DNA of 64,000 nucleotides, from NCBI GenBank assembly GCA_965228855.1, contig CBDDIJ010000005.1, positions 635,856 through 699,855 on the forward strand, read 5' to 3'. The translations under genes were made by a program, and so were the position numbers. Shown here piece after piece: positions 11,683 through 53,933 of the stretch. The DNA is from Candidatus Obscuribacterales bacterium (GTDB lineage: Bacteria; Cyanobacteriota; Vampirovibrionia; Obscuribacterales; Obscuribacteraceae). Within the stretch, counting starts at the first letter, position 1, and every line of letters begins with the position of its first letter. Below the pieces are notes generated by a model. It worked only from the letters and a program-made list of their open reading frames with translations. It had not been told where the DNA came from and ran no database searches.

Positions 11683-11800
11683 GCCTTCGGTCAAAATTTG
11701 GGAACCAAAAGTTCACACTTGCGATGCTAGTCTAAGCATCTTACTAGGCCCGAACCCTTTTCTATCGCTTGCACTCAGCCCTGCGTCTGAGGAATTTTTG

Positions 11801-18086: not shown

Positions 18087-18122
18087 AGCTAAGAGCGTCA
18101 ACAAAAATAGCTTTGAAGAAAG

Positions 18123-18146
18123 AGGCGCGGACCGTAATCCGCGCCT
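18123..18146. terminator. bidirectional rho-independent terminator between the Mo-enzyme operon and giant gene 1
   Basis: 9-bp GC-rich stem aggcgcgga / tccgcgcct with a 6-nt loop. It is followed by ttcgtttactttattt on the plus strand and by ctttcttc on the minus strand. Confidence 0.65.
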
Positions 18147-18192
18147 TTCGTTTACTTTATTTCGAAACGCCGGGATGTTTCTCCCGCCCTTC

Positions 18193-21100
18193 CTACCATT
18201 GGAGGGCTACGGTTCTCGGCTTTGTGTGCAGTTCGTAGGCAGGACCGTTTGAAGTCATCTGCATGATCACTGCAGTTGTTTTCAGAACGCCGGCGCGAAC
18301 CTTCCGCGCTTCGCGGTGCTGCGATTGCACGATTGCGGCCAGCGGTTTGATCGCCTGAATGGCAGACGGAACGGAGAATTCACTGGTGAATGCTTTGTGC
18401 CCGTTGCCCAGATCATGGTGAGCCAAACCGCGGTGCATGACGGCTTCCACCGGATTGATTTCCGCGAACTGTTGGACGCTCGAATGCGTGACGATCGCAT
18501 GCTTTCCAGGTGAGAGCGGAATGCTTCTGCCGCCGGCTTCGATCACGACGCTGCGTTTGTGCTGATCATTAACGTCGTAAACCGATAAGTGATTTTGATC
18601 GACAACGACCATCGCCACTGAATCAGCAGCAATCTTAACTCGTCCCTTGGGTGTCACAACCGTGGTATCGGTTTTCGGCACAAAGAGAACGCTACCACTA
18701 TCCATCGTGACGCACTGATTGTGCGAAACCTTGCTCAGAGAGCTCATCAGGCTGTCACCGGATAGCTCGAGGTCGCTGCAGAGTTTGGCATCGACTATCG
18801 TAGCCGTCGGTTCCGAAGTCGACATATAGGAATCATCATGGCCGGGACCACCCGAAGGCACCGTCGCCAGGGTGACACCGCTAGCGGTGCTGGTCAATGA
18901 GGCAAGGCTATCTCCGCCGCTGAACGTTCCGGTGGCATTATTCAACGAGATCAATTGCATCGCTCGCATCTCATTATTCACTGAGAAAGTCGCGACTGGA
19001 TTCGTGATTGCGATCGGCGACATCGTCACCGAACCATCCAGTGAATTCGTGGACAGGTCGTTAAGGGCATTGAGCGTACCGGCTGCGGAACCGGCATTGC
19101 CGAAGGTCCGGATTGTCATCGGTGTTCCTTCTGCTACCGGCGGATCTGCAGTGATGATGTTATTGCCTTCGAAGACTATTGATTTCGGATTGAAGGTACT
19201 GACGTAAACATCAGCGCCCTGTGCGGTGAACACAATACCTCCGGAAACGGCTTGAGCCTTCTTGCCGCCGAAGAGAACGCTACCGCCGTTTTCAACGATG
19301 GTCACGAACTTCTTAGGTGTAGGCGTCTTACGACCTGGTGACTGTGGTGCGCCGAGTACGATGTTGATGTTTCCGAGACCTGGAGTCTTGGCGTTGGTGA
19401 GAACTGAAGAACCATTTCCGAAAACGATGCTATCGCGTTTCTTCGTTGAACCAAGCATCGTGATGTCGATCTGGTCGTGAGCCAAGATTGTGATGCCATC
19501 TGCGATGTCGAGAGTGTCTTGAGTCGCGGTGACAGCGAAGGCACCACCAGTCGAGGTGATGTTCTGGGTCAGATTCAAACCACCGTTTGCTGTCAGATTG
19601 ATGTCACCAGCTGCAGTGATGGCAACGAAGTTCACACCGGCAGTCGATGCGCTGGAGACAAAGAATCCATTACCCGCCGAGCCACCGATTGAAGAAACAT
19701 TCGCCGCTACAAGGAATGGATTATTGGCGTCCGTTCCAACATTTCCACTGACCGAGTTCAACAACAAAGTCGGTGTATTCAGCGTTCCGGTGATGTTGGT
19801 CAGGTCACCGTCCGTGGTGAGTGAAACGCTGGTAGTTCCATTAATCGTGCTGGTCAGGTCGAACGCTCCACCGGTGGCTAATGCGACAACCTGAGCGCTG
19901 TAGTCACCTCCGGAGACGAGATCGCCTGCGGTCGAAACATCAAGAGTGTTTGTCGCGCTGCTGGCGTTCAAAGTCGAGGCTAATGTGTTGGTGTTGTTCA
20001 CAAACACATTTTGACCTTCGACCTGGAAAGTGTTCGCGTTGATTTGCAGTCTGTTCGCGGCATCGACGCCGAGTGACGCGTTGGTATCGAGAACCACGAT
20101 ATCGCCGTTTATGACACCTGCACCGGAGCTGGTCACACCGTCGTCTGCAAAGACATTACTCGTACCGGTTGCGCCAATCGAGTTACTGACAGCTACAGTT
20201 CCATCAGCGACATTAATAGACAACGTACCAACAGTGAAGTCAGAATCAGTTGTCACAGCGCCACTGGTGACGTTGACATTCAATACATCCACGCCTTGCG
20301 AGCTGAGGATCAAGTCGTTAGCTTCGTTGATAGTCAGGGTCACGGCGTTGGCGGTGGTGGACAGGCGGTCGACGTTCGTGCTCAGGGTCACCGGACCGGT
20401 GGCGAAATCGAGGAAGAGCGTTCCGCCCTGTAGGGTGCCTGCAGTCTGCGTGATTGTTCCAGCCGAGCTGAGCTCAACATAGTTGCTACCTCCGACGCTG
20501 GCGTTGAGAACGATATCGCCGGCGGTGGTCGTCAATTCGACAATGCCTATGTTGAAAGCGCTCGTCGCCACAAGCGAGCCACCTGAGCTCACAACCAGGG
20601 ACAAGTCCGAGCCAGTTATTGCGCCAAGGTTGAGGGCGTCAACATCAGATACATCGACGGTACCCAGTCCACTGCTAGAGGCGTTGAGAGTAGCGACAGC
20701 CGTGCTGCCGAGAGTCGCCACGCCGTCGCCGACATTGACAGTCAGATTGTTGGCGCTTATCAGTCCTGGAGTCTGGCTGATCACATCGGTCGCTCCCAGC
20801 GCACCTGTGAGCACGACATTAGCCAGTCCGGCGTCAATCGTGGTGACAATCAAGTCGCCAGCAGTCTGGGCGCCGACTCCGAAACTACCAGAGAGCAATA
20901 CGCCATTCTGGACAGTGATTGGTCCTCCTACGATTGTCGGAGTCGCGACCGCCATGTTGACGTTTCCACTGGCGGTTCCACCGACAGTATTGATGGAGCC
21001 GACGGTGATCCCGCCCGGTCCGGTGATGTTGACATTGCCACCATTCACTGCGCCCGTGGTGTTGATCGTGTGAAGCACGATAGAGCCATCGTTCAGCGTG

Positions 21101-24100
21101 CCTGCGTTGGCGACAGCAGTGAAATTACCGCCGCTGCCAGCCCCGCCGTTCAGATTGATGGTGACGTTGGTCAAGTCGATTGAACCACCGTTGGCATTCA
21201 CTCCGGTTATCGTGAACAAGCCGGGGCTCTGGATCTGACCTGCAGTCGCCGGTGTGAAATCATAGCCCGCCATGAGCGTGAGTGAGCCACTTCCAGTTGG
21301 TCCTGAGAGGTTGATAGAGGTGGAGCCGGTCGTCGTGATATTTCCGGCAGCTAGAATTGCCAGGTTCTGACCGACGAATACCAAATCTGACGGAAGAAGT
21401 ACATCTCCGTTGCTATTAGCAATAGTGCCATTGTTACTGCAAACTATTACGAGCGGATTACCTGTGATAATGCCGTCGAAAGTCAGGTCGCAAGCATTAA
21501 TGGTAGTTCTGTTCACACCAGTCACAACTGCACCGGCATTCACGATGAAATTGTCTGGTTCCGCACCGACAGTAAATGCAGCCTCACCGGTTCCGTTCAA
21601 CAATATGTTTCCGGAGAGATTGATACCGGCTGCCGAGAGGACAGTGAAACCATTGGCAGTCGTGTAGGTGCCGCCGGTCATCGACAGCGCGCCGGCAGTG
21701 TTGAAGACGTTAATCTGATCGAAGTTGGCGCCGACAAGACTGGTCAGATTGCTAGTACCGAGACTCAACGTGCCAGTACCCGAAACGGCTCCATTCAAAA
21801 GTATGCTGCCACCGTTAGTGGTGTCGAGCGTGAAGAAGTCGTTTCCGGCGGTGGCCTGAACGACAACGGTTGAAGTTCCGGCGTAAACGATCGAGACATC
21901 ACCTCCACCTGTGGCGTTCGCAGTCAGAGAGAGAGGATTGGCGCCATTAGTGACGATGAGCTCATTGCCAGATCCACCGATGCCGCCGGAAGCGGCCGTC
22001 ACTGCCAGGTCTCCCGCCGTCAGAGTTCCAGAAGTTTGTTGGATGAAACCGCTTCCACCAGACGTGTCAATCGTCAGCAAAATAGCAGCATCGATGTCGG
22101 CGTCGATTGTCACATTTCCACCAGCGTTTACGATATTGACAAACGAGGCATCAATTGCTCCGGAGATTAGAACGTCTCCAGAAGCGATTTGAGATGCATT
22201 GAGAGCAAATGTTCCGACATCCGCTGATGTGACGTCGATACCATCGCGCTCATTGATAGTCAGTATCTGTGTACTGCCTCCGGTAGCAGTCACTGAGTCG
22301 ACATCTGTTACGAGCGTCACTGGACCGGTCACGAAATCAACGTTCAGAGCGCCACCGATGACGGTGCCGGACGTTTGAGTCAGACCCGCACCGGAGACCA
22401 ACGTCACAGAGTTGGTGCCCGTCACATTCGCATCGAGAGTGAGGCCGGTAGCACCATCAAGACGAACATCCGCGCCGGTCACTGCGATGTCCACCACGAG
22501 ACTGAGATTCGAGCTCGCAATGAAGGTATCCGTAGCCGCAGCGATTGTCTGTAAGTTCAACGCCGAGGTACTGGTGAAATAGACGGATCCGCCTGCACTG
22601 AGTGATGCGGTTGAAGCGTTCACCAACAGATAATCGGTAGATTCGCCGATCGAACCGAGCGCAGATGTGAGGTACAAGTCAGGCGAGTTCAATCCACCCG
22701 TGATATCAGCGTTGACGATGTCGTTCTGCGCATCCAACCGAATCTGGGTCGTAGCTGTCACAGCACCGTCAAGGTCGAACTTGTCCCCTGATTGCAGACG
22801 GACAGCGTTACCGGAGATGGCTCCGGTGCTTGTCAGAACACCGCCCGCGATGGCTTGGAAAACTTCTCCTACTGCGTTTGAAGCTGCCGAGCCACCAGGA
22901 CCGAAATTCATAGCATTTGCATCTTGAACGAAGACAGAACCAGTCGTGGCGTTCGCTGTTATGTTGTCGACATCGACCTGTAGGAAATCGAGACCAACAC
23001 CGATGTCGCCTCCAGTGGAGGTCAAATTGAGTTGCACGACTGGGATGCCGGCTCCTGAATCCAGACCTCCGACTATGTTAGCGTTCAAGATCGAGCCTGC
23101 CGACGAGAGCGTGATGCTGCTGGTTCCTCTGGTCAATCCACTGAGAACCAGGTTGCCAGTAGTTGCGGTCAGAGATACGTAAGCAGCAGAGACGGTACCG
23201 GACGAGGTCAGGTCGTTCACTGCGGTCACGTTGAAAGTACCAACCGCTGACGAAGCCGCCAGATCAACCGAATTAGAGTCGCTGACGAACGCATCTCCGA
23301 CAGATTGAATCGACAGGACAGCAGTATCCACCAAAACACTATTGCCGGAAACACCGATGGGACCAACGGTAGTGACAAGATTAATCCGTGGAGAGACGAT
23401 GTTGTTCATTCCGTCGGCAGCTACGATTCCGTTATCAGAAGATACTGTGACACTTGTCGTACCGGTCACAGCAGCATTTATCTGAACATATTGAGATGAT
23501 CCGGCTATAGCTGTGAAGTCGACGTCAGAAGCATTTACTGTCGAATCGACGGTGATCAATCCGTTCGCATGTAGACTGAAGACTCCCTGAGCGGAGGAGG
23601 CACCACCAACAGTGACAGCGCCGGCGTTCTCAACCCAGACGTTACCGAGTGCAGCATTCAAAGTCACTGTTGTGACGTTTAAAGAAAGCGGATCTAGAGC
23701 AGTTCCGATATCACCGTTGGTCGATGTAGCAACTAAGGTCGGCGTGATCAGCTGACCGAGACCCACGCCATTGAGAATGTCGTCACCGGAAGTGAGCGTA
23801 ATGCTGGTAGTGCCGCTTATCGCATTATTGAAAGTGAAACCGCCTGCCGTGGCTGTCAGGCTAACTGTCGCAGCATCGATAGTGCCATCATTAGAGATGT
23901 TCACGGGCGCTGAGGCTGTAAACGAAGTTGCCGTGGAGGCTCCAGGTCCGATGTTCATAGAGCCCGTGGTGTCGGTCAGCACAACTGTCGTAGCCGATGC
24001 ACTCACGTTTTGGAAATCAGCGGTGACATCTATAGTCGCGCCGGCATTGGTGGCGTTAAGGACAATAGTTGGTGCCGATAGCGGGTTGGCGAAGTTGGCC

Positions 24101-27100
24101 GTCAGGATATCATTGAACGAAATCAACTCAATTCTGGAACCGATCGTCACGGCGCCTGGAATTAAGATGCCACCATTCGCCGAATTCAGATACAAAGAAT
24201 CCGCCACTACAGTCTGGGCAGCCGGCACGGTAATCGTACCAGTTGACCAGAGAGCCAGGTCGCCGGTCACGGTGGACGACCTGAGGTCTATAGCACCACC
24301 GGTGTTGTTGAGATACGCATTATCAGCGCCAGCACTGATCGCCAGAGCGTTGAATGCGAATGCGTTTGCCTGACCTCCCGCCGCGCCGATGTTCCCGTCA
24401 GACTGCAGCACAAGCGATTGAACCGGCAGGCCCACTCCACCATCGAGCACGCCCGAAACTGTGCTTCCGTTGATATCTCCTGCCGAGGTCAAAGAGATTG
24501 TGCCGGCAGCGCGCACTCCACCGTCGAGATCGAAGACACCATTCGTCGCGGTCAAGCTCACCGAGCCGGTCGTCGACTGTATCAATGCGCCGGAGACAGA
24601 GCTCAAATTCTGATTGGCGGTAACGGAAATATCGTTCGCAGCCGAAGAGGCGAGGTAAATCGAAACGCTGTTGGCATCGGAGTATGTCACCGAGCCGGCG
24701 GAGTTGAACTGCAGTGAATCTACATCGAGCACAGAAACATCTATGTCGCCGGACGTTGTGGTGAGATTCGCAGCCAGAACATCGAAGGTGCCGGTCAGAT
24801 CCGCATCAACGATGCCGTTTCCAGAAGTTATGGCAATCGTAGTCCCAATCACCGAGCCCGGAATCTGCACATTCGCGGAAGTGGACGTCAAGTTGGTTAC
24901 CGGTGAAGAAATCGTGCCGGTGACAACGAGAGCGCCAGTTGCATCAACCTCGAAGACCGAACCGGAGAAATTAGTTCCGACGATGTTGAGCGCCCCGGTT
25001 CTGGTGGCATAAACAGAATTTCCCGGAGCTAACAAACTGCCAGCCGATGCCGAAAAGTTGTTTGCGTTTACGACAAAGGAGTCTCCCAGCAATCCGACAC
25101 TTCCAAACGTTGATGTAAGATTGAGAGTATCGGTAAATTGCAGACCGGTTGTAGCACTGTTGGTTATTGGACCACCAGAGCTCAACGTGACGCTGTTGGT
25201 ACCGGTAGTGGTGCCAGTGATTGTGAGGAAACCGCGCGGAGCAGAGAGCAGCAGGTCATTTGCACTCACTGTACTGGCGAGACCAATTACAATGTTTCCG
25301 AACTTCAGGTCCTCATCAGGTCTGGCGAGGTCGAATGTTCCAGTGACGACGCTGTTACCAATTAGATTCAAATCCGGCGAACCGCTGATAGCGTCTGCAA
25401 AAACATATGCTGAGCCACCCGTGTTGACGGTCAAATTGAGCGACTTCGTATTCAAGCGAGACGACGCGTCGGTTCCGATATCGCCGTTCGTGGAGCTGAG
25501 CGTCAAGAATTGCGCGCGGATCTGCGCTCCATTCACAGTATTCATGTCGGTACCGGACGACAAGGAGACGTTCGCGCCATACATATTGGCACCGATCTCC
25601 ATCAGTCCTCCGGCTGTCAAAGATATGTTCGTGATCGTTGGCGGAACGCCAAAGTCTCCAGTCCCGATAAGCCCGGAAGTGGTCAGATCATCGTCAGCTG
25701 TGACTATGAAGTCTAGTGAAGACGTATTAGTTCCGTTGATATTAACCGAGTTCGGGTCATGAACCGAAACGGTTCCGCCCTGGAGATTCAGATTGACGGC
25801 ATCGATATCGAGAGGATTTCCCATTCCTGAACCGATGTTCGCAGCTGCTTTCAAATTGATTTGGTCAGCGCTCAGAATGTTCGGGTTATTGTTTAAAGTG
25901 TTATCGTCGATAGAAGTCGCTGAGTCCAACGTGATCGACTGATTAGCAGTGAGAAGACTGAGTACCAAGATATTGCCGACGGTTGACTTGATAGTGACGT
26001 TCAGAGCATCAACAGTACCACCGAAAAATACCGCGGCATCACCTGTGATATTAAAGTTTTGCGGTGTCGTGACCGTGTTTGGAATTCCCTGAAAGCTCGC
26101 AGTGCCGGTTGCGGTAATGGTGATGTTTCCTGTGGTAGTCTCCAACGACTTGAGAAACAACACATCACCTCCAGTCGAAGTGATGTCGATAGAACCGAAT
26201 GCTGAAATTGTTCCGATACTGCTCAAGGCACTGATAACATCATTAGCTGTGATTTTGACATTGCCTGCGGTGCTGGTTATATCTCCGGCTCCAATTGACA
26301 TAGGACCATCTAAACTGATGTCACCGGGTGCTGTAATGTCGCCCAGAACTACCAGACTGTCATCGCCGGACAGCTTGACGTAGCCGCCGGTTGAGGTAAC
26401 TGGTGCACCTGGGTTCTGGATCATATTTGCCATCGATGTCAACTCGATGTTACGCCCAGCTGTCAGCGGAGCATTGATATCAAAACTGTTGTCTGTTGAC
26501 ACGAAGAAGTCGGTACCTGCGGACGAACCGGCCACAAGCTGAGTATCTATAGACGTCGCAACGTTGGAGACATACACGCCATTAGCAGCGATGAGCAACA
26601 GATTCTCGGCATTCGTAACCACCCTAGAGCCGAGTGAACCAATGCTACCGTTTGTCGATGACAGCGATAGGCTTAGGACTGGATCACCTAAATTGTTCAG
26701 CGCAACCGTTCCAAGCCCGTTAGCAGGAATGGTATTACCTGACGTGAGCGCAACATTTACCCCATACACCGCCCCAGTCAGTCCAAGCGAGCCGTTGGTT
26801 GCTGTGAGCGTGACGTTCGGAGCAGCAATGACACTGCTGGCGGTGCTCAAAATATTATTGGCCGCAATCACTGTGATGTTTGTGTTTGCCGACGCGTTAG
26901 TTATTGTTACCGAGTTCGGATCAACAATGTAGATGTCTCCAGCAGTCGCGGTGGCGCTGAGTCGATTGGCGTCGATATGCAACTGATTGCCCACTGAGCC
27001 AACCGACCCGGAGAATGACAAAAGATTCAATTCCGGCGACACGATCGTAGCGCCAGTGAAACTAGAATCGACTATCGATGCATTGGAAGAAAGGTTAATC

Positions 27101-29829: not shown

Positions 29830-29884
29830 TAACCCGATCCTCGATTATTGTCGATTGCAACTGCTTGACTACGTGCCGATGGTA

Positions 29885-29913
29885 GAAGGGCTCCGCATTT
29901 CGCGAAGCCCTTC
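29885..29913 (-). promoter_or_regulatory. intergenic RNA stem-loop directly after the stop of giant gene 2 (no U-tract)
   Basis: 12-bp stem with a 5-nt loop. The single C/A mismatch on the plus strand becomes a G-U pair in the minus-strand (sense) transcript. No U-run follows, so it is more likely a processing, stability or partial-termination element. Confidence 0.4.
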
Positions 29914-29924
29914 CAGTTAGTTGA

Positions 29925-41576: not shown

Positions 41577-41627
41577 TATGTTAGGTCCTGCAAAATAAAT
41601 TGAAGTGAGAAACGAAAGAAACGCGAG

Positions 41628-41670
41628 ACGCCCCCGAGCACGGAACCTCAGTTCTCATGATCGGGAGCGT
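41628..41670 (-). promoter_or_regulatory. intergenic RNA stem-loop directly after the stop of giant gene 3
   Basis: 10-bp outer stem acgcccccga / tcgggagcgt. Its single C/A mismatch on the plus strand is a G-U pair in the sense transcript. The 23-nt loop holds an inner 4-bp stem (gaac/gttc). On the sense strand a U-rich run (uuucuuucguuucu) begins 6 nt after the stem. Confidence 0.35.
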
Positions 41671-41675
41671 TGCAA

Positions 41676-47600: not shown

Positions 47601-50600
47601 GATGTCCAGACGATCTGCCGAGCCCGCTCCAATTTGTTGTGCAGTCAATATCAATGTCGGCGCATTCAATCCGCCGGCAATATTGGCGTCAATAATCAGG
47701 TTAGTGGTCGCTGTCAGAGCGATGCTGCTTGTGCCGGTTACCGCGCCATTGAGGGTGAAGAAGCCACCCGACGTCGTCAAATTGACCGCATTGGCGTCGA
47801 TCGTACCAGCCACTGTGCTGGTGATGTTTCCAGTGGCGTTGAGGAGGAACACATCGAAGGCACCGGATGCACCATTGACGTTGATACCGCCCGCCGTATC
47901 ACTGATAAACACGTTGGCGATTGGTGCGTTCGCGGTCAAGTTGACAGCATCAATGCTCAGCGCCCCACCGACACCGAGAGCGCCGATTTCACCATTGTTT
48001 ACCAGCAGGTTGAGCTGGTTGACGGCCCCACCTGAAGTGAACAAACCACCTGCGATGCTTGAATTGAGAATTGAATCATTAGAAACGAGGTTGATCGTTT
48101 GCGCGTCGACAAAAGCATCAAGCACGAGCTTGCCACCAACTGCAGTCAGTGAAGCCGTTGTTCCGGCAGTCACCGTTCCACTGCTGGTCAGATCGACAGG
48201 AGCGCTTGCCGTGAAGAACGTTCCAGCGCTGCTTGCGCCGGGACCAAAGTTCATATTGCCCGTGGTATCAACCAGCGTGACGGAACCTGTCGCGTTCGCC
48301 ACCACATTCGTGAAATCAACAGTCGTAATGTTGATGTCGTTCAAGCTGCTGAGATTGATATTCGGAGCGAACAATCCACCAGAAATTGACGCATCGCTTA
48401 TTGTTGCGCCGGAGAACAAATTGATCGTGAGCGCAGTCACTGGTCCGTCAAGGACAAAGCTACCGGTCGACGTTGCATCTACGTCAAATGTGATTGTGCC
48501 ACCCGCAAAGACAGCAGAATTGCTGGTCAAGTTACCGTTGGCAATAGTTACGGTGATATCCCCGCCCGCTGATGTGTCGTCGACACCAAAATTGAAGCCA
48601 TTCGCATCAGACAGGATGATGTCCCCGGAGGCGATTGCCGAAAGATTAACGAAGTCAATCGTTGAGAGATTGATCGAATTCGAGAAACTGTTCAGATTAA
48701 TCTGTGGGGCAGACACTCCACCAGTCACGCTGGCGTTCACAATCGAGTCGTCGGATCTCAGGGATACTGATGTTGTACCAGTGACCGAACCTGCAAGAGT
48801 CAAACCGCCACCAGTAGCCTCAAGGGCAACTACATCCGCGGCGATCGCTCCGGAGCTGGAGAGATCATCGAAAGCAACAATGTCGATTGTCGATAAAGCA
48901 GTTGCACTGACAATGTTCGTCGAGAAGATATCGCGAACAAACGCAGAGCCGGCGGTAGCCGAAAGCGTGAGATTGTCGGAGTCGACGGTGAAGCGAGACG
49001 AATCGTCGGTTCCGATACTTCCCGTATTAGCATCGAGGGTAATGGTAGGTGCGATAACAGCACTTCCAACAACGTTTGTGATGTTGGTTTCCGCCAATAA
49101 ATTGGCGGCGGTCGTCGCCGTCACATCAGAGCCGAGGTTGATTGCCCCAAGTTCAGAGGTGAGATTCACGGTGTCAGCCGAAATCGTGCCGGTGCTCGTG
49201 ATATCTCCCGCAGTGGCAACGATGTTGAACGAGTTAAGCGCACTGCTTCCACCTGCATTATCGGCAAGATTGACGCCGTTTGCAGCCCGCACGAATACAT
49301 CGCCGAAGCCGGCGTTAGCGGTGAGGTCAGTCACATCAACGTTCAGATAGTCGCCAGATGCACCGATGTCACCGCTGTACGACGTCAGATTGAGAGCCGG
49401 CGTCGACAAGCCACCAACTAGATTGGCGTTAAGAATATCGTCATCAGAAGCTATGCTGACGGCTGTGACTGCAGTGACCAGGTTATTCAACTGAACGAAT
49501 GCAGAACCGGACGAAAGGTTGACTTCATCACCCGATAGAGGACCATTGACAGTGACACCATTCTCGCCGTCCAGGCTGATGTCATCAGTCGTCGTGATGT
49601 TCTGAGTCGTCAACTGATTGTCCGCTTGCATAAACACCGGACCGCTGGCGTTCACGTTGCCGCCGGAATTGATGTCATTACCGGCGTAGATGTCTATAGA
49701 TGTTCCAGAAGTGATGTCCGAAACGATAACATCGTTGTTGGCGAAGACAAACACGTCCGTGCCGGTGTTGAGTGCGCCGTTAACAGTTGCATCATTGCCT
49801 GCCACGATACTGATGGATGACGTCGCGGATGTGACGTCGCCGTTTGTGGTGATATCACTGCCATCGATACTGATCAAATCAACTGCGTTCAATACATCGA
49901 GCGTATCAACGTCTCCACCGGTGGAGCTGATGAACAGACCGAATCCGGAGTTAACAGAGCTGTTGACACTGATGTCACCGACTGCGGAGATGACCACATC
50001 CCCTGTATTCGTCGTTATGGCGCCGAGTGTGGTGAGTGTCGATTGAGAATCGATAGAGACGAGGTTACCGGCGGAAAGTGTATTTGAAGTCGTCACACCG
50101 TTGCCGCTGATATCGATGTCGACGCCGGCGGAAACCAATCCGGTTATGTTGGCAGTTCCGACGTTCGCAGCCAGAATCACAGAGCCGGAGGTAGCGGAAA
50201 CAGTTCCGAGAGTTTGAATCGAGTCTCCGGAAATCGTGGCGTCACCACCGGCGGTGATGCCCTGGAACGTTGTAATGTTGCCGCCGGTCGCAAAGAGTGT
50301 GACATCACCAGCCGCGTTGACAGTGTCGAAAGTATTTATCGCGCCGTTCGCGGTCGCAAAAACATCACCATTAGCGGAAACCGGTCCACTCGTGGAGATC
50401 GAGCCGTTAGAGTCCAGATCGATATTATTGTCAGCCGTCAACGCTGCACTCGCCGTTAGAGTGGTGTTGGCTGATAGAGCAATATTGCCGCCAGCTGTGA
50501 TGTCGTTCTGAACATCAATCGAATCGGCAGTGATATCGGTCGAGTTGCCGCTGTCGATTGTTCCGACATTGCTGAATGCTCCATCGGCAACAAGACCGAT

Positions 50601-53600
50601 GTTGAACTGGGCAAACGAATTACCCAAAACGGTGACGTCGTTCAAATCGTGGATGTAAGCAGAGCCGTTGGTGGCCGTGAAGGTCAAATTGTCAGCATCG
50701 ATATCGAGGTCGTTCGAAACCGAACCAATATCTCCTGCTGTGGAGGTCAACTCAAGGTTGGCAACTGCGCCGCCGAAGCCGTTGCTCAAGCCACCCGAGA
50801 TGCTGGTGTTGAGAATTGAGTTGGCGGATGTAAGCTTGATGCTGTTGGTACCAGCCACAGCTCCATCGAGATCAAAACCGCCTGCAGTGGCAGTGAGATT
50901 CACATCAGTAGCGAACACAGAGCCGGTGCTAGTCAGGTTGTTCGCAGCCGTGACTTCAAATGTCGAGAGGGCAGACGATGCGCCTGGTCCGAGGTTAACT
51001 GAGTTCGGATCGGAGAACCAGACGTTGCCATTTGCGGCGTTCAACGTGACGCTCTGCGCATCAAGGTTCAACGGAAGCGCCGAATTCGTTCCTATATTTG
51101 CGAGCAACGAAGTCAGATTGATTCGAGGCGAAACCAGAGATGCTCCGAGGTCGACAGTTTGAATACTTTGACCGGCCGTGAGATTGATCGAAGTCAATCC
51201 TGTGATGACAGTACCGGCACCCAGAGTGAAGACACCGTTAGTGGCGGTCAAGTCAACAACGTTTGCAGTGATGTTGCTTGTGTTACTGATACCGAAATCA
51301 GCGGTTAATTTCAATGTTCCGAAAACGTTCGAGGCACCGCCGCCGAGATTGACAGAGTTCAAATCCGTCAGTGTTGCGCTGCCGTTTGGAGCAGTGATGC
51401 GGAGGTCGTCGACGTCAATGATGAGCGAGCTGACCGAGCCGATGTTGGCTAGGTCAGATTGAACGGAAAGAACGGGTGATGTTATCTGAGCCGTACCTTC
51501 GACATTGAAGCTGGCGCGCAGGTCGACTCCACTCACACCGGTGATGGTGTTGAGAATATTGATGTTACCGCCTGACGAGCGCAGAGTGACGGTATCACCC
51601 GCGATGGCGCCCGAGTTACTCAGGGTGCCCTGAGCTAAAATGTTGAAGTCGCCTTGAACCGTGGCAGCAAGGAGGTTGACCTCGTCGATGTCCTGGACGT
51701 AAACCGAACCCAGCGGAGCGTCTACGTAGAGGTTATTTGCATCCACGCGCACTCTTTGAGAGACCGAACCGATATCGGTGTTCTGTGATACCAGATTGAC
51801 TGTGGGTGCCGAGACGAGAGAACCGACTCCGGCGCCGATGATGCCGTTGACAGAGGTAAAGTTGATTGTTCCGAAATTACTCGTCACGGAAGAGCCGGTC
51901 AGAGTCGTGATGGTGTCGGCATCAACGAACACATCTACGTTGGTCAGCGAGTTGCGCACGAAGGTGACGTTTGCGTCAACTCCGACTCCTGGTCCTGCGA
52001 TCAAGCCGTTTCCTGACGCTATGGTTCCGTTGAGGTTGTAAACGATGTTGCCACCGTTGGACGATATAGGCTGAGTTGTCGTGATGTTGATTTGGCCGGT
52101 GGAGGTGTTGCCACCGGTCGTGTTTATAAATCCGACGTTGACTGCATTGCCATTTTGCAAACCAGCGATGATCGTGACATTACCATTGGCATCACCAGCC
52201 GTTCTGCCGCCGGTATTGATCGTCGTCGTTCCACCACCGATGTTGACACGTCCGGAGCCGACGGTTCCGCCTTCAAATGCAGCGAGCAATACGTTGCCGC
52301 CCGCTCCGGCTGCGCCAGTTGAACGAGACGAGATCGTGACGTTATTTCCGAGGAGGATGCTACCACCGGTAGCGGAAGCGAGCCCGGTAAGCGTTGTCCC
52401 TTGTGCGGTTCCTCCGCCGGGCAGAGTGGTGGAGTTCGTTCCAGCTACAAGTTGATCGGCGCCAGCTACGATTGTTATCGGGTAACCGGTCGCACCATCG
52501 CCAGCCGTGATAGTGATGTTGTTGACGCTGGATACGTTTCCACTGGCAATGATCGCCAGTTGTTCATTGACCGTAATGTTGCCGGCAATTGTGATATTCC
52601 CGCTATCATTTTTGAATGTTGGGTCGCCGGTCAGGCAAACTTCGCCAAGAACCAGCTCATCGGTTGAGGCGGTGACATGGGCTTCGGATCCCGTTTGATT
52701 CAAAACACCTGTCAGTTCGCCGACATGCGTTTGCATCACGCCGTTACCAGCGTTCAAGTTCAATTCCTTCGAGAAGAAATCACCACCGGTAACGTTGGTG
52801 TTGAATGCGCCGGCATATTCTGAGTTTCTTACATTGATAGCGTTTGCAGCGGTGAAGGTACCGCCACCTGCATTGACATTCAACTCGGCTGTCGTGGGAC
52901 CATCAATATTGATATCGCCCTTGAGCGATGTGACGGAGCCGGAATTTAAAATGTTTGGTGCGTTGAGATTTACGTCACGCTTAGCGCTGACTTCAGACGC
53001 GTTTGTCAGGGTGTCGCCCGCGCTGAGTGTCAAATTGCCTTTGGACGTTATGGTGCCATAGTTCGAGAGGTTGCCGCTAGCAAACAAGCCGAGGTCTGTT
53101 TCGGAGGATATAAGTGCTCCGGCTTGGTTGGTGATATCGTCGGCGCGAATTGCTCCACCATTTTTGTGGCTCGAATAGGTGTGAACAGTTCCGGCGTTAG
53201 TTAAGTCGCCCAAAAGTTTGAAATCTGAGCGTTTGCTGAAGTCACCATATGTGGTGACGTTGACAGGAACAACGAGGTCGGATGCTCTCATCACGTCATT
53301 ATTTGAGGTGATGCTGCCGAGATCGACTTCACCACCGATCGCCGAACCGGAATTGTCGATTGTGATTTTCTGAGAGTTGCCAGAAAGGATTTGTTTAACG
53401 GCGATATACTCCGCCGCGCTCACTTGCGAACCAGCCTGAACTGTTTTGGTTTCGCCGCCGACGTTGATTTCAACTGCGGAAACCTTGCCGAACAGATTAT
53501 TACCGAGCGTGATGTTGCGCGTCGTGGAAGTGAGGTCGAGACTCACACCACCGCGTATATTGACAAGATTACTATCGACTTGCTGAATCGACTGATTGAT

Positions 53601-53933
53601 AACACCTTGACGTTCGAGACGTTTTTCAATCCGCCTTGTAGTACCGGTGACTCGGACAGCATCGCTTATCGAGCTGACAGCCGGCATCGGGATAGAAGGA
53701 ATCGAGATAACGGCTGGATCGGCGCTCCGGCCGCCGCCACCAAATTCGGTGCGATACATTCTGCGCAATGCGCTGCGGTCGATACCGGCATTCGCATCGC
53801 GAAATTCGCGGAAGCTAGGTCTATCGTCTGCGGCTGCAGCTGAGTGAGCCGCCACGAGAAACAGGGAAGCGCTGATTACGCCAGCCCATCTTCTGCTGAA
53901 CGAATTTCTTACACGTACGCTCTTCTTACTCAT
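41676..53933 (-). CDS. giant secreted beta-helix-repeat protein, paralog 3 (~4085 aa from the MSKK start), unclassified family
   Basis: The track ORF extends to 54128. The ATG at 53933 (GGGGGA upstream) gives MSKKSVRVRNSFSRRWAGVISASLFLVAAHSAAA|ADD, which is collinear with the starts of paralogs 1 and 2. Same five-part architecture, ending ...KPKTVALNW. Confidence 0.85.
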   Translation of the reverse strand: MSKKSVRVRNSFSRRWAGVISASLFLVAAHSAAAADDRPSFREFRDANAGIDRSALRRMYRTEFGGGGRSADPAVISIPSIPMPAVSSISDAVRVTGTTRRIEKRLERQGVINQSIQQVDSNLVNIRGGVSLDLTSTTRNITLGNNLFGKVSAVEINVGGETKTVQAGSQVSAAEYIAVKQILSGNSQKITIDNSGSAIGGEVDLGSITSNNDVMRASDLVVPVNVTTYGDFSKRSDFKLLGDLTNAGTVHTYSSHKNGGAIRADDITNQAGALISSETDLGLFASGNLSNYGTITSKGNLTLSAGDTLTNASEVSAKRDVNLNAPNILNSGSVTSLKGDINIDGPTTAELNVNAGGGTFTAANAINVRNSEYAGAFNTNVTGGDFFSKELNLNAGNGVMQTHVGELTGVLNQTGSEAHVTASTDELVLGEVCLTGDPTFKNDSGNITIAGNITVNEQLAIIASGNVSSVNNITITAGDGATGYPITIVAGADQLVAGTNSTTLPGGGTAQGTTLTGLASATGGSILLGNNVTISSRSTGAAGAGGNVLLAAFEGGTVGSGRVNIGGGTTTINTGGRTAGDANGNVTIIAGLQNGNAVNVGFINTTGGNTSTGQINITTTQPISSNGGNIVYNLNGTIASGNGLIAGPGVGVDANVTFVRNSLTNVDVFVDADTITTLTGSSVTSNFGTINFTSVNGIIGAGVGSLVSAPTVNLVSQNTDIGSVSQRVRVDANNLYVDAPLGSVYVQDIDEVNLLAATVQGDFNILAQGTLSNSGAIAGDTVTLRSSGGNINILNTITGVSGVDLRASFNVEGTAQITSPVLSVQSDLANIGSVSSLIIDVDDLRITAPNGSATLTDLNSVNLGGGASNVFGTLKLTADFGISNTSNITANVVDLTATNGVFTLGAGTVITGLTSINLTAGQSIQTVDLGASLVSPRINLTSLLANIGTNSALPLNLDAQSVTLNAANGNVWFSDPNSVNLGPGASSALSTFEVTAANNLTSTGSVFATDVNLTATAGGFDLDGAVAGTNSIKLTSANSILNTSISGGLSNGFGGAVANLELTSTAGDIGSVSNDLDIDADNLTFTATNGSAYIHDLNDVTVLGNSFAQFNIGLVADGAFSNVGTIDSGNSTDITADSIDVQNDITAGGNIALSANTTLTASAALTADNNIDLDSNGSISTSGPVSANGDVFATANGAINTFDTVNAAGDVTLFATGGNITTFQGITAGGDATISGDSIQTLGTVSATSGSVILAANVGTANITGLVSAGVDIDISGNGVTTSNTLSAGNLVSIDSQSTLTTLGAITTNTGDVVISAVGDISVNSSVNSGFGLFISSTGGDVDTLDVLNAVDLISIDGSDITTNGDVTSATSSISIVAGNDATVNGALNTGTDVFVFANNDVIVSDITSGTSIDIYAGNDINSGGNVNASGPVFMQADNQLTTQNITTTDDISLDGENGVTVNGPLSGDEVNLSSGSAFVQLNNLVTAVTAVSIASDDDILNANLVGGLSTPALNLTSYSGDIGASGDYLNVDVTDLTANAGFGDVFVRAANGVNLADNAGGSSALNSFNIVATAGDITSTGTISADTVNLTSELGAINLGSDVTATTAANLLAETNITNVVGSAVIAPTITLDANTGSIGTDDSSRFTVDSDNLTLSATAGSAFVRDIFSTNIVSATALSTIDIVAFDDLSSSGAIAADVVALEATGGGLTLAGSVTGTTSVSLRSDDSIVNASVTGGVSAPQINLNSFSNSINLSTIDFVNLSAIASGDIILSDANGFNFGVDDTSAGGDITVTIANGNLTSNSAVFAGGTITFDVDATSTGSFVLDGPVTALTINLFSGATISDASISGGLFAPNINLSSLNDINITTVDFTNVVANATGSVTLVDTTGNMNFGPGASSAGTFFTASAPVDLTSSGTVTAGTTASLTAVGGKLVLDAFVDAQTINLVSNDSILNSSIAGGLFTSGGAVNQLNLLVNNGEIGALGVGGALSIDAVNLTANAPIANVFISDTAGGINVNGASGAFDVFLLNATGNITSTVAGTIDANAVNLTTSGGFFTLNGAVTGTSSIALTATTNLIIDANIAGGLNAPTLILTAQQIGAGSADRLDINTDNLIATATAGGVFVADADDLDVNSASATASIDIVATGNLHSSGLISAGDDVTLRAVNGDFLLNGEVRAVDTITLRSFDSILNANIAGGLTGAGGTAAVANLVLTSDNGDIGAGLDTLKIDAVNLGANTPAGSVFITDDGHLGDDNINVNVASAAQDTFELTANTDLTSSAGISGTTVFLNALGGSFTLAGSVQGLAEINLTSNGTIDNAAVVGGLSSPQINLASSANNIDITSIDFAQVSALAANGYVNLADANDISIGADSSLSGISFTVTAAGSVTVTGAITAGTTLSLTATGGSVNVNAPLEAVTIALSSNDSILDANVVGGLTADNFNFESTAGDISLSSLNLTNVIANAFGFVSLSDTTDSMTFNGASSAGTSFTAVAPINLNSTAAGTITAVDVDLTATGGAFDLDGAVTGTTSIKLTSSASILDANVSGGLNSGIGIPAAFLDLTSTNGNIGDILDFLNVDADVLRANAATGTVFVEDANNITLGGGSSAAGVAFGILSGGDITVNSNVTAPIVALTAGDDIILNADVAGATGVSLNAGDELTQTAGIVSGGLLTVDFGAASATLSTNVAQLTTVGDATDLTVLEADNIQLLSQVVDVLDVNSANGSITTGADLSLTALVLTSDTGNIDISNNITATGAVTFDTSTGNGSITQTAGTLITTPLLTMFSAAGGIGTGALPIRVVGTGAGAITVIAEAVGGDVNITYTGTNTISLDGSTGNNNFSVAALTGTIQTLDDIDGTGHLKLTTSNIIHSNTFDFDTIEVATAGSGSNLTISGTGGFFNSENGTTFDTLEGDMTFAGNTTFGGNGEAILTVKDLGGINNFFTVNGGVSVVGQNQLTVNACDLILTGSLSGNPLVVNCADAGTIANNNGSGDVNLSGNIIFNGGPFAIIASGNINTSGATLIDLTGTTNGGNLTLMAGVTFTPTTPGQTQNADTYTITGFSTQGGNINLSTVNILTVGNNGNGGAVTAIANNGITNAGIVNLGNIDTSGTATSGQVRIIGAGGVFTGDIDTTGGITSGNINIAVAKPVISGTIFVQNGAVTGGSFTTGVATNGDVLVGNITAPGRDVTILGALGAGDDISQRVATSIASNKLIVNTGVGTATFASTSVGELNTSGGGAITLLNEADGIILNGVAGVGQDVVINAGGTITVQGTGVNVDQLTLTGNSASGNAIVINAATTANDVDLISATGNIQLGAALTGNNSVDFNSNGAITQTAGTVSGNALSVSFGSGPVTLNTSVASLTTLSAGTLTINEANDITIGSQAVTALTVNSTAGNITTSADFLVNDLTLTATAGTIGITNDITATNSATLTASGGMTTTLGGSVITNNAVLSSAGAIGTDSANRFTIVANNMRVAAAQNAFVNNTLAGAVVLGNSIATNTLDIFTVGDLTGAGTASSANTVLATGGKFALTGALTGTTTLTLTANNNIVNADLTGTLTTPSLKLTSVTGSIGVDENNPFNVAAGIGTISGNALAATGSVFINSASTVGVNFAESTAGNDLSLASAGALTVTGDLTSVNGDLSVLGSGGFLTIGDNTTLTAFSSINVINTTSDKKAKLILGTGSTIVTNAKIAGLGDVTIAIGPSILPPGGNKTPKFTTVVENGGTVSFSGRRAKGLSPQNIFTAQGADILVSNNLRNNLIEIRGGVTVTADPPVPVGTPVYISYGKGVMHGADATTSSPAATTDSAFASELISSAPVASTAALQLVSLNNMTATNSLGSSNLLNSSDSATNLATASTNGLAGAVSTTADNSYMTTNAPSSMTFDVQLCTDMELGFSAGENGVSTRPHSDCVTMDHGSVLFVASKDTTVVSPKGTVKLAAGAIALVVADATHLSVYDVNDHHKRSVEVEVGGRSIPLAPGRHVTVTNDKCAQFAEVNAIEAMMHRNVGHHDMGNGRKAFTTEFSLPGAIQVLKPLKALLSSKHPEAQKVAAKVVKTSAIVLQLGQNGTAYEFHTKPKTVALNW
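42990..52540 (-). repeat. degenerate protein-level repeat body of giant gene 3 (expanded ~350-aa short-period block ~49480-50545; Cys module ~44350-45070)
   Basis: Same repeat grammar. The ~20-aa-period block (..AGGD.T...GD.I.T.G.V.A..) is roughly twice as long as in paralogs 1 and 2. Boundaries are approximate. Confidence 0.7.

What the first reader, a model, noticed from the sequence alone, without database searches (positions are those of the whole stretch)
18193..53933. Three tandem giant paralogous secreted repeat proteins whose architecture fits no canonical giant-adhesin class
Seen in sequence:
- Three uninterrupted, co-directional ORFs of 11,637, 11,652 and 12,258 nt, separated by only 95 and 99 nt, fill 55% of the window.
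- All three share one collinear five-part plan. (1) A signal peptide, MSKK.V.VR.SF...W..VI..SL....A.A. (2) An N-domain of about 470 aa, with DR.(S/T)FR(D/E)FRD.N.GIDR and RLERQGVINQS, ending at CLTGDPT(F/Y)KN...AIIASGN. (3) About 2300-2600 aa of repeats rich in N/T/S/G/A/V/D/L/I, with almost no K/R/E/aromatics and no Cys. (4) A conserved Cys-bearing module of about 230 aa. (5) More repeats, then a conserved C-terminal region of about 440 aa.

Established knowledge: giant bacterial surface proteins usually belong to one of these classes.
- TpsA/FhaB: TPS domain with NPNL/NPNGI motifs plus an adjacent TpsB.
- Autotransporters: a C-terminal beta-barrel.
- RTX/T1SS adhesins: no N-terminal signal, GGxGxD nonapeptides, adjacent ABC/MFP genes.
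- Ig-like repeat adhesins.

I could not see any of these hallmarks, and no exporter gene lies in the window.

Inference: this is a distinct family of secreted fibre or adhesin proteins, kept as three ancient copies, possibly with an unknown export route.
Basis: partly seen in the sequence, partly recalled or inferred. Interest (0 to 1): 0.9.

Follow-up and report, generated by a model that had tools for sequence, protein, structure and literature searches.

The report
Melainabacterial giant beta-helix fibre proteins
Three neighbouring genes of about 12 kb each encode real, conserved, roughly 80-nm rod-shaped secreted proteins of a large, so far unnamed family found only in the non-photosynthetic relatives of cyanobacteria; they resemble known bacterial "haemagglutinin" fibres but lack the parts that normally explain how such fibres leave the cell.

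Summary
Three co-directional minus-strand ORFs (3,878, 3,883 and 4,085 aa) are collinear paralogues. They are intact, syntenic and under purifying selection (dN/dS 0.145) in independently assembled relatives. The organism is a Candidatus Obscuribacterales bacterium (Vampirovibrionia/Melainabacteria).

The proteins belong to a large lineage-restricted family with a fixed head, a variable stalk and a fixed tail:
- a long Sec signal peptide;
- a conserved helical FRxFRxxNPxxxR motif and a disordered spacer;
- a ~500-aa beta-helical head;
- a stalk of degenerate ~20-aa coils;
- a C-cap;
- in some members, a disordered linker plus a ~200-aa C-terminal globular domain.

The C-terminal domain alone defines 2,274 clusters at 50% identity. 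It always sits at the extreme C-terminus of proteins up to 7,943 aa. Its predicted fold is FecR-like.

Pfam, NCBIfam and PDB sequence searches recognise nothing in the window proteins. A genuine TpsA control scores strongly for the TPS domain, which these proteins lack. No TpsB, T1SS or barrel gene lies near any of about 15 family loci.

The nearest known kind is the FHA/TpsA beta-helix, by repeat type and weak fold matches. The export route remains unknown. Verdict: a new variant of a known kind, moderately to highly interesting.

The parts
18193..29829 (-). Gene A, 3,878 aa giant beta-helix fibre protein
   Evidence: ORF. Translation and composition. Orthologue MBX3148659.1/P0119 with dN/dS 0.145.
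29925..41576 (-). Gene B, 3,883 aa paralogue (50% identical to A)
   Evidence: A 3,885-aa orthologue sits upstream of the A orthologue in JAHBVO010000001.1.
41676..53933 (-). Gene C, 4,085 aa paralogue (38% identical to A and B); start at ATG 53933
   Evidence: A 4,087-aa orthologue (P0120) has the same upstream synteny in a third assembly.
29731..29829 (-). A aa 1-33: long Sec-type signal peptide (MSKKAVKVRKSFVKQWIAVISGSLFASAMQAHA|AD)
   Evidence: Read directly from the sequence. A comparable N-terminus occurs in nearly all full-length family members. The cleavage site was judged by eye; no predictor was run.
29632..29724 (-). A aa 36-66: conserved post-signal motif FRxFRxxNPxxxRxxxRxxF, predicted as two short helices; followed by a disordered spacer (aa 67-120)
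   Evidence: Consensus of alignments A2 and A4. Model has helices 41-47 and 53-64 at pLDDT ~92, and pLDDT below 50 for 67-120.
27910..29457 (-). A aa 125-640: family-defining beta-helical head (N-domain) with the invariant C-L-T-G-D-P-T motif
   Evidence: Most conserved part among the paralogues. 118 clusters of homologues with E down to 1e-214. AlphaFold2 model with pLDDT above 90. Weak fold matches to TpsA proteins.
21550..27909 (-). A aa 641-2760: proximal stalk of degenerate ~20-aa beta-helix coils
   Evidence: Autocorrelation peak at lag 19-21. Low paralogue identity and many indels. That this part is a beta-helix is inferred, not modelled.
20830..21549 (-). A aa 2761-3000: 'Cys module', an internal duplicate of the second half of the head
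   Evidence: BLASTP of A 2761-2995 against A 430-637: 33% identity over 204 aa, E = 9e-8. Conserved among paralogues. Cys at 2780 and 2797.
19135..20829 (-). A aa 3001-3565: distal stalk and family C-cap, ending ...ITAD
   Evidence: Aligns with the C-termini of the ~1,000-aa family members. Modelled as beta-helix with pLDDT ~90.
18814..19134 (-). A aa 3566-3672: linker that starts Pro-rich (PPVAEGTP) and is predicted disordered
   Evidence: pLDDT ~30 for model residues 180-273. Lowest conservation and highest gap content of the tail region.
18196..18813 (-). A aa 3673-3878: C-terminal globular domain, a beta-sandwich plus helical tail with a FecR-like predicted fold
   Evidence: Model pLDDT ~90. 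Foldseek top hits 4m0n/4m0h and 6ovk_R, prob 0.99-1.00, E 0.03-0.09. 2,274 representative clusters, always C-terminal.
29928..30581 (-). B C-terminal globular domain (aa 3666-3883)
   Evidence: Alignments A3 and A5: 63% identical to A.
41679..42338 (-). C C-terminal globular domain (aa 3866-4085)
   Evidence: Alignments A3 and A5: 57% identical to A.
39597..41576 (-). B signal peptide, motif and head (aa 1-660)
   Evidence: Alignments A1 and A2.
52014..53933 (-). C signal peptide, motif and head (aa 1-640)
   Evidence: Alignments A1 and A2. Sub-threshold PF05594 hit of 17.1 bits at aa 262-312.
18121..18148 (.). GC-rich hairpin between the convergent ends of gene A and the xanthine-dehydrogenase operon; a likely bidirectional terminator
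   Evidence: 10-11 bp stem with 7 GC pairs on both strands. This is a consensus match only.

Best explanation
The three genes encode Sec-exported, rod-like beta-helical fibre proteins of a large family restricted to Vampirovibrionia/Melainabacteria. The window comes from a Candidatus Obscuribacterales bacterium.

Shown:
- Every full-length member starts with a long signal peptide, a conserved short helical motif (FRxFRxxNPxxxR), a disordered spacer and a ~500-aa beta-helical head.
- A stalk of degenerate ~20-residue FHA-type coils follows. Its length varies from a few hundred to more than 7,000 residues between members.
- The stalk ends in a conserved C-cap.
- A subset of members, including all three here, adds a ~100-residue disordered linker and a ~200-aa globular domain with a FecR-like predicted fold.
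- In the window proteins the second half of the head is duplicated once, about 70% of the way along the rod.

Inferred:
- The rod is about 80-90 nm long.
- After Sec transport the protein crosses the outer membrane N-terminus-first through a translocator encoded elsewhere in the genome, most likely an Omp85/TpsB-like or otherwise shared channel.
- The conserved head and post-signal motif take the role that the TPS domain plays in two-partner secretion.
- The linker and C-terminal domain stay on the cell side as a protein-binding foot, as FecR-type periplasmic domains bind partner proteins. They tether the fibre, while short members that lack this domain are released or held in another way.
- The function is surface attachment or cell-to-cell or cell-to-prey contact.
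- Three old paralogues, with the stalk as the fastest-evolving part, suggest diversification of binding or antigenic properties.
For: Real genes under selection: (dN/dS 0.145).

Organism and restriction of the family: all 10 genome loci and every named protein are Obscuribacterales, Melainabacteria or 'Cyanobacteria bacterium' MAGs.

Head family: 118 clusters, E down to 1e-214. Head model pLDDT above 90, a right-handed beta-helix. Top fold matches are the TpsA proteins HxuA, HMW1-PP and EtpA.

FHA-type coils: ~20-aa periodicity. P0011 passes PF05594 and TIGR01731. Sub-threshold PF05594 hits in A and C. tblastn and hhalign similarity only to the coil regions of true TpsA proteins.

Shared C-cap with short members.

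C-terminal domain: 2,274 clusters, always at the extreme C-terminus. It is linked to the head in all full-length large carriers. It also occurs as 1-3 tandem copies in small signal-peptide proteins, so it is a soluble module. Model plus FecR-family fold hits.

No transmembrane runs and no barrel-like C-terminus.

Head, duplicated module and tail are far more conserved than the stalk.
Against: - No translocator has been identified. None lies near any of about 15 loci examined, and the whole genome could not be searched.
- Extracellular location, adhesion and the topology (which end is cell-proximal) are inferred only from analogy with FHA/CdiA-type fibres.
- Fold matches are weak. No PDB hit reaches E <= 1e-3 for either model, and TM-scores are 0.1-0.34.
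- FecR likeness is structural only. PF04773 gives no hit. hhalign against E. coli FecR gives probability 0.1%.
- The stalk between aa 700 and 3400 was not modelled.
- Most family members lack the C-terminal domain, so it cannot be needed for export.
Confidence: 0.55

Rival explanations
1. They are ordinary but highly divergent TpsA exoproteins of two-partner (type Vb) secretion. The head is a degenerate TPS domain recognised by the POTRA domains of one or a few TpsB transporters encoded elsewhere, which serve the many paralogues.
For: Sec signal plus an N-terminal conserved beta-helical domain plus FHA-type 20-aa coils is the TpsA plan. The top Foldseek hits of the head are TpsA proteins, including three secretion domains. 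Paralogues hit PF05594 and TIGR01731. IMG auto-names some members 'filamentous hemagglutinin' or 'HecA-like'.
Against: PF05860 and TIGR01901 give no hit at E up to 1-10, while a genuine TpsA control scores 3e-26 and 2.4e-13. hhalign of the head profile aligns only to coils downstream of the control's TPS domain. There are no NPNL or NPNG motifs. A helical motif and a ~55-residue disordered spacer precede the helix, unlike TPS domains. No TpsB lies next to any of about 15 loci, whereas tpsA-tpsB linkage is the rule.
Confidence: 0.25
2. The C-terminal domain is a C-terminal sorting or secretion tag for a dedicated, undescribed outer-membrane export or attachment pathway. This would be analogous to the beta-sandwich C-terminal domains of type IX secretion cargo, which also combine a Sec signal with a C-terminal tag.
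For: The domain sits at the extreme C-terminus in all 150 best carriers out of 2,274 clusters, on proteins of very different length. It is also found alone behind a signal peptide and linker in small proteins such as P0132. It is a compact beta-sandwich preceded by a flexible linker. No known exporter is linked to it.
Against: Most family members (~1,000 aa) lack the domain yet share the signal peptide, head and cap, so export cannot depend on it. Some small proteins carry 2-3 tandem copies, including internal ones, which suits a binding module better than a tag. At ~200 aa with a helical tail it is larger than known sorting tags. No conserved neighbouring machinery was seen.
Confidence: 0.12
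3. They are CdiA-like contact-dependent toxin or effector delivery fibres. The C-terminal domain would be the delivered cargo, used in competition or predation.
For: They are giant FHA-like rods with a linker and a distinct C-terminal domain. Relatives of this lineage (Vampirovibrio) are predators (own knowledge).
Against: The C-terminal domain is conserved across the whole family, not polymorphic. No small immunity-like gene follows: gene A ends at a convergent terminator, and B and C are each followed directly by the next giant gene. There is no VENN/PT-type demarcation motif and no toxin family hit. The fold resembles a regulatory or binding domain, not an enzyme.
Confidence: 0.05
4. Artefact: the giant ORFs are assembly chimeras of repeats, or are non-coding.
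For: The window comes from an uncultured lineage known only from MAGs. Repeat-rich genes are prone to misassembly.
Against: The repeats are degenerate, with no long exact repeats and only a weak ~20-aa periodicity. The ORFs are uninterrupted for 11.6-12.3 kb. An independent assembly has the same gene with 92% aa identity, dN/dS 0.145 and 5 gapped columns. Two further assemblies keep the tandem order and synteny. Hundreds of relatives share the same head-to-tail order.
Confidence: 0.02

Closest known systems
TpsA exoproteins of two-partner (type Vb) secretion: FHA/FhaB, HMW1, HxuA, EtpA, CdiA
   Same: An N-terminal Sec signal, unusually long. A conserved N-terminal beta-helical domain followed by a very long right-handed beta-helix of ~20-aa FHA-type coils. 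These are the best structural neighbours. Paralogues pass PF05594 and TIGR01731. As in FhaB and CdiA, a Pro-containing linker and a separate C-terminal region follow the rod.
   Different: No TPS domain by HMM or profile-profile comparison. No NPNL or NPNGI motifs. A helical FRxFRxxNPxxxR motif and a disordered spacer precede the helix. There is never an adjacent TpsB (about 15 loci). The C-terminal domain is a conserved FecR-like module, not a prodomain or a polymorphic toxin.
FecR/PupR-type periplasmic domains of cell-surface-signalling anti-sigma regulators (PDB 4m0n, 4m0h, 6ovk)
   Same: The predicted beta-sandwich of the C-terminal domain gives these as top fold matches: prob 0.99-1.00, rmsd 3.9 A over ~90 residues. 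In the known systems this fold is a periplasmic protein-binding module.
   Different: No sequence-level relation. PF04773 is silent. hhalign against E. coli FecR gives probability 0.1%. Foldseek E is only 0.03-0.09. There is no transmembrane segment, no sigma or anti-sigma context and no TonB-dependent transducer nearby. The domain sits at the end of a giant fibre or in tandem in small secreted proteins.
Classical autotransporter passengers (type Va; e.g. pertactin, EspP, IgA1 protease, IcsA)
   Same: A signal peptide and a beta-helical passenger. These structures appear among weak fold matches.
   Different: No C-terminal beta-barrel. PF03797 is silent. The last 200 aa are modelled as a beta-sandwich with helices, and the same domain occurs in tandem in soluble proteins.
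Type IX secretion cargo with a C-terminal sorting domain
   Same: A Sec signal at the N-terminus and a conserved beta-sandwich domain at the extreme C-terminus of many otherwise different-length proteins.
   Different: A different lineage: T9SS is a Bacteroidota system (own knowledge). No NCBIfam sorting-domain hit. The domain is larger and sometimes internal or tandem. Most family members lack it.

Membership tests
TpsA (two-partner secretion exoprotein) | N-terminal TPS secretion domain (Pfam PF05860 / NCBIfam TIGR01901) | tested here: not met
   No hit on whole proteins or on head tiles at E up to 1-10. The control TpsA (L016) scores 3e-26 on PF05860 and 2.4e-13 on TIGR01901. hhalign of head profile A2 against the control aligns only to residues 417-557, downstream of its TPS domain.
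TpsA (two-partner secretion exoprotein) | Conserved NPNL and NPNG(I/M) motifs in the secretion domain | tested here: not met
   Zero occurrences of NPNL, NPNG[ILMV] or NPxG in A, B and C.
TpsA (two-partner secretion exoprotein) | Cognate TpsB (POTRA_2 + ShlB-type barrel), usually adjacent | tested here: not met
   Adjacency is not met. None is in the window or in the flanks of about 15 family loci.
TpsA (two-partner secretion exoprotein) | Long right-handed beta-helix built of FHA-type ~20-aa repeats (PF05594 / TIGR01731) | tested here: inconclusive
   Window proteins: PF05594 at 16.1 and 17.1 bits, below the 21.5 cut-off, and ~20-aa periodicity. Paralogue P0011 passes both cut-offs. Head and stalk end are modelled as beta-helix. 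Top fold hits are TpsA proteins, but with E >= 8e-3.
Classical autotransporter (type Va) | C-terminal 12-stranded beta-barrel translocator (PF03797) | tested here: not met
   No Pfam hit. The C-terminal 200 aa are modelled as a beta-sandwich plus helices after a disordered linker. The same domain is tandem in small soluble proteins.
RTX / type I secreted adhesins | No N-terminal signal peptide; GGxGxD nonapeptide repeats; adjacent ABC/MFP genes | tested here: not met
   A signal peptide is present. GGxGxD occurs 0-1 times, as expected by chance, and the nonapeptide 0 times. There are no ABC/MFP neighbours.
Ig-like / cadherin-like repeat adhesins | Tandem ~90-110-aa Ig-fold domains detectable by Pfam | tested here: not met
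   No Pfam repeat-domain hits. The period is ~20 aa, not ~100. The modelled parts are beta-helix.
FecR family (PF04773) | Sequence match to the FecR domain model | tested here: not met
   No PF04773 hit in A or C tail tiles or in six small carriers. PDB profile search is empty. hhalign against E. coli FecR gives probability 0.1%.
FecR family (PF04773) | FecR-type periplasmic beta-sandwich fold | tested here: inconclusive
   Foldseek top four hits are the FecR-family structures 4m0n, 4m0h and 6ovk_R with prob 0.99-1.00, but E is 0.03-0.11 and only 74-90 columns align. The beta-helix-only head model gave no such hits, so the match is attributed to the globular domain.
Extended signal peptide region (ESPR, PF13018) of type V proteins | ESPR motif at the start of the signal peptide | tested here: not met
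   No PF13018 hit. By eye, the 33-aa signal peptide with a long basic n-region and 'W-[IV]-A-V-I-S' loosely recalls ESPR. This is a lead only.

The most novel reading that the evidence does not exclude
Vampirovibrionia/Melainabacteria use a so far undescribed way to export and anchor giant beta-helical surface fibres. A lineage-specific N-terminal module (the helical FRxFRxxNPxxxR motif plus a ~500-aa head) would replace the TPS domain as the outer-membrane targeting element. A widespread, unannotated ~200-aa FecR-like C-terminal domain (2,274 clusters) would dock the fibre to a periplasmic or outer-membrane partner, or act as a sorting domain. That would amount to a new branch or type of secretion and attachment system in the sister lineage of cyanobacteria.
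Probability: 0.25. Interest if true: 0.85.

Novelty: new variant of a known kind. Interest (0 to 1): 0.58.

Why it matters
Giant surface fibres govern how bacteria attach to surfaces, hosts, prey and each other. Almost all known ones fall into a few secretion classes whose hallmarks annotate them automatically.

This family has hundreds to thousands of sequence clusters and proteins of up to about 8,000 residues. It takes up a large share of coding capacity in an uncultured lineage that matters for the evolutionary history of cyanobacteria. Yet it is invisible to Pfam and NCBIfam and is labelled 'hypothetical'.

Defining its head and tail domains would give two new domain families. It would improve annotation of Melainabacteria genomes. 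It also poses a concrete, testable question: which outer-membrane machine exports FHA-like rods that have no TPS domain and no linked TpsB? A FecR-like domain used as the foot or tag of a fibre would also be a new use of that fold.

Tried and rejected
- Whole-protein Pfam and NCBIfam scans gave nothing. I repeated them on tiles in case composition filters hid hits. Only sub-threshold PF05594 appeared.
- PDB sequence and profile searches with the head and tail were empty.
- Two word-indexed protein searches with the C-terminal domain returned nothing. These were false negatives. Known positives (P0106, P0114-P0116) were missed, and the exhaustive HMMER search later found 2,274 clusters. They are not used as evidence.
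- Conserved-neighbour analysis across the window and 10 loci found no shared partner gene. Neighbourhood look-ups for seven further proteins found no TpsB, T1SS, secretin or sigma/anti-sigma partner.
- The two large unannotated neighbours in the window (1100-3526 and 11573-14059) were inspected as possible exporters. One is a multi-pass inner-membrane-type protein and the other an acidic low-complexity protein. Neither looks like an outer-membrane barrel.
- The ETEC plasmid accession for EtpA was not in the collection, so a Paraburkholderia TpsA served as the positive control instead.
- The N-glycosylation idea was dropped: sequons are not enriched over composition.
- Literature searches for this family in Obscuribacter, Melainabacteria or FecR-fibre contexts found nothing relevant.
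Full report
OBSERVATION

The window contains three uninterrupted, co-directional ORFs on the minus strand:
- A: 18193-29829, 3,878 aa.
- B: 29925-41576, 3,883 aa.
- C: 41676-53933, 4,085 aa.

They are separated by 95 and 99 nt and occupy 55% of the window. They are collinear paralogues over their whole length: A-B 50% identity, A/B-C 38%. The proteins are rich in G, T, S, A, V, N and L. Each has about 1-2% of K, R and E, 0.1% W, and only 5-6 Cys. All stated coordinates and sizes are correct. The only omission is that the genes lie on the minus strand.

REALITY OF THE GENES

A genome-collection scan found a 92-93% DNA-identical, syntenic stretch in the MAG JAHBVO010000001.1, Candidatus Obscuribacterales bacterium ACE_CYA3. 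Gene A and its orthologue there (MBX3148659.1) share 92.1% aa identity. They have only 5 gapped columns, dS 0.32, dN 0.046 and dN/dS 0.145. A 3,885-aa B orthologue lies upstream of the A orthologue.

In a third assembly, a 4,087-aa C orthologue follows the same upstream genes and is itself followed by the next giant gene. Those upstream genes are RsmH, DapF, an FtsQ-like gene, MazG, UDP-glucose dehydrogenase, an epimerase and a Clp_N-like gene. The ORFs are therefore real, selected coding genes and not assembly chimeras.

ORGANISM AND FAMILY

All 10 related genome loci are from Candidatus Obscuribacterales MAGs. They hold 16 further family members of 944 to more than 4,000 aa, often in tandem. 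A profile of 16 heads retrieved 118 protein clusters (E down to 1e-214). Every named one is from Obscuribacterales. Most are about 1,000 aa. IMG auto-names some 'filamentous hemagglutinin' or 'HecA-like'; NCBI calls them hypothetical.

More divergent carriers are named Candidatus Melainabacteria bacterium or 'Cyanobacteria bacterium' MAGs. Single MAGs carry at least six paralogues, shown by the locus tags K2X93_*.

ANATOMY

(1) Signal peptide. It is 33 aa long, with a long basic n-region and an AxA-type site, read from the sequence.

(2) Post-signal motif. Directly behind the signal peptide is a motif conserved across the family, FRxFRxxNPxxxRxxxRxxF. It is modelled as two short helices at pLDDT ~92. 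A ~55-residue disordered spacer follows.

(3) Head. This beta-helical domain spans A aa ~125-640. It is the most conserved region among the paralogues (three-way identity 0.43-0.58) and holds invariant residues including C-L-T-G-D-P-T. AlphaFold2 with a 109-sequence alignment gives pLDDT above 90 for residues 130-640, a right-handed beta-helix with a small alpha/beta cap.

(4) Stalk. It has low conservation and many indels. A weak but consistent ~20-residue periodicity fits one beta-helix coil.

It is homologous to the second half of the head (A 436-627): 33% identity over 204 aa, E = 9e-8 (first seen). It is an internal duplication, not a new module.

(6) C-cap. The last ~170 residues of the rod (to ...ITAD, A ~3565) align with the C-termini of the ~1,000-aa members, most of which stop exactly there.

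(7) Linker and tail. The giants and a subset of other members continue with PPVxEGTP, a ~100-residue linker modelled as disordered, and a ~200-aa globular domain. That domain is modelled at pLDDT ~90 as a ten-strand beta-sandwich followed by helices.

If the whole rod is beta-helix at ~20 aa and 0.48 nm per coil, it would be about 82-87 nm long (inference).

THE C-TERMINAL DOMAIN IS A LARGE HIDDEN FAMILY

An exhaustive HMMER search of 1.84 billion representative proteins found 2,274 clusters at E <= 1e-3, of which 647 reach E <= 1e-30. In the 150 best carriers, which range from 155 to 7,943 aa, the best-scoring copy lies at the extreme C-terminus in almost all. The exceptions are a few small proteins with tandem copies.

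All full-length large carriers (1.1-7.9 kaa) start with a signal peptide and the family head. Those without a head are N-terminally truncated fragments. The family plan is thus fixed head, variable stalk, fixed tail.

The domain also occurs behind a signal peptide in small proteins, either singly (P0132) or as 2-3 tandem copies (P0126, P0128, P0145, P0163). It is therefore an autonomous soluble module rather than a membrane barrel.

COMPARISON WITH KNOWN CLASSES

Pfam-A and NCBIfam report nothing for whole proteins. On tiles, the only results are sub-threshold PF05594 hits in the heads of A and C (16.1 and 17.1 bits against a cut-off of 21.5). PDB sequence and profile searches are empty.

As a positive control I used a genuine TpsA from a Paraburkholderia plasmid. 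It scores 3e-26 on PF05860 and 2.4e-13 on TIGR01901. hhalign of the head profile against this control aligns only to coils downstream of its TPS domain, at probability 61%. tblastn hits to TpsA genes likewise fall in repeat regions and are not significant.

NPNL/NPNG motifs, RTX nonapeptides and transmembrane runs are all absent.

The short paralogue P0011 does pass the cut-offs for the FHA repeat models PF05594 and TIGR01731.

Foldseek of the head against the PDB ranks TpsA proteins first: HxuA at E = 8e-3, the HMW1 secretion domain at 0.38 and the EtpA secretion domain at 1.1. Generic beta-helices follow. No hit reaches E <= 1e-3 and TM-scores are 0.1-0.34.

Foldseek of the tail model ranks FecR-family periplasmic domains first: 4m0n and 4m0h, then PupR 6ovk. 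Probability is 0.99-1.00, E is 0.03-0.11 and rmsd is 3.9 A over 90 columns. The beta-helix-only head model produced no such hits, so I attribute these matches to the globular domain. At sequence level there is no link to FecR.

NEIGHBOURHOOD

The window around the genes is housekeeping: xanthine-dehydrogenase subunits, an MFS transporter, VWA, LRR and TPR proteins, UDP-sugar enzymes, MazG, an FtsQ-type POTRA_1 protein, DapF and RsmH.

No TpsB/ShlB, POTRA_2, T1SS ABC/MFP, secretin or sigma/anti-sigma gene lies there or beside any other family locus examined. No gene is conserved next to family members across loci.

INTERPRETATION

Shown:
- a real, selected, lineage-restricted family of signal-peptide-bearing beta-helical giants;
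- a family-specific head;
- FHA-type coils;
- a shared C-cap;
- an optional C-terminal domain with a FecR-like fold;
- absence of the sequence hallmarks and gene linkage of type Va, type Vb and type I secreted adhesins.

Inferred:
- They are extracellular or surface fibres that cross the outer membrane through an unlinked translocator.
- The conserved head and motif act as the targeting or folding-nucleation element.
- The linker and C-terminal domain act as a cell-side docking foot.
- Adhesion or contact is the function.

The main rival is that they are simply very divergent TpsA proteins with unlinked TpsB partners. This cannot be excluded without a whole-genome search. A sorting-tag role for the C-terminal domain is less likely, because most family members lack it. 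A CdiA-like toxin role and an assembly artefact are both unlikely.

NOVELTY AND SCORE

I found no paper describing this family, and neither Pfam nor NCBIfam models it. It is best filed as a new variant of the FHA-like beta-helical fibre kind, with two undescribed domain families and an open export question.

The claim that it fits no class is too strong, and the three genes are typical members of a very large family rather than a singular oddity. Interest: 0.58.

Noticed in passing
window 1100-3526 (+): An 808-aa ORF with many hydrophobic segments and a large C-terminal soluble part, and no Pfam hit at E <= 1e-3. By eye it resembles GT-C-type (ArnT/PMT-like) membrane glycosyltransferases. Not tested.
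   Followed up: partly
window 11573-14059 (+): An 828-aa highly acidic, low-complexity ORF with no Pfam hit, in a region of strong AT skew (0.23). It is conserved in the sister MAG, where it is called as 747 aa. Function unknown.
   Followed up: partly
window 4372-5406 (-); L004, L006, L009: A leucine-rich-repeat protein in the window has homologues (up to ~950 aa) within 10 kb of fibre-family genes in three other Obscuribacterales loci. This may be chance in an LRR-rich lineage, or a loose association.
   Followed up: no
window 54420-55526 (-): A 368-aa protein with a weak Clp_N repeat hit lies directly upstream of and co-directional with gene C. This position is conserved in a third assembly. 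It is preceded by a UDP-glucose dehydrogenase and an NAD-dependent sugar epimerase on the same strand.
   Followed up: partly
window 29830-29924 and 41577-41675 (- strand intergenic): The short spacers between the giant genes contain GC-rich inverted repeats, for example GAAGGGCT...AGCCCTTC just after the stop of B. There is no T-run and no sigma-70-like promoter. The three genes may be co-transcribed with internal attenuating or processing hairpins.
   Followed up: partly
L014 8001-11647 (ENA ERZ2854975 contig): P0126, a small secreted protein made of three tandem copies of the C-terminal domain, is followed immediately by a 597-aa trypsin-like serine protease.
   Followed up: no
tool behaviour: The word-indexed protein search returned no hits for the C-terminal domain, even though four database proteins carrying it were part of the query alignment. 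The exhaustive search found 2,274 clusters. The word-indexed search also returned no protein longer than ~1,200 aa for the head profile, although giants such as P0119 are in the collection. Null results from that tool should be treated with caution for such domains.
   Followed up: yes
window 60516-61727 (-): The DapF (diaminopimelate epimerase) ORF is 403 aa from its TTG start, with three matched stretches. It is longer than typical DapF (~275 aa), and the orthologue is called at 398 aa in another assembly. This may be an N-terminal extension.
   Followed up: no
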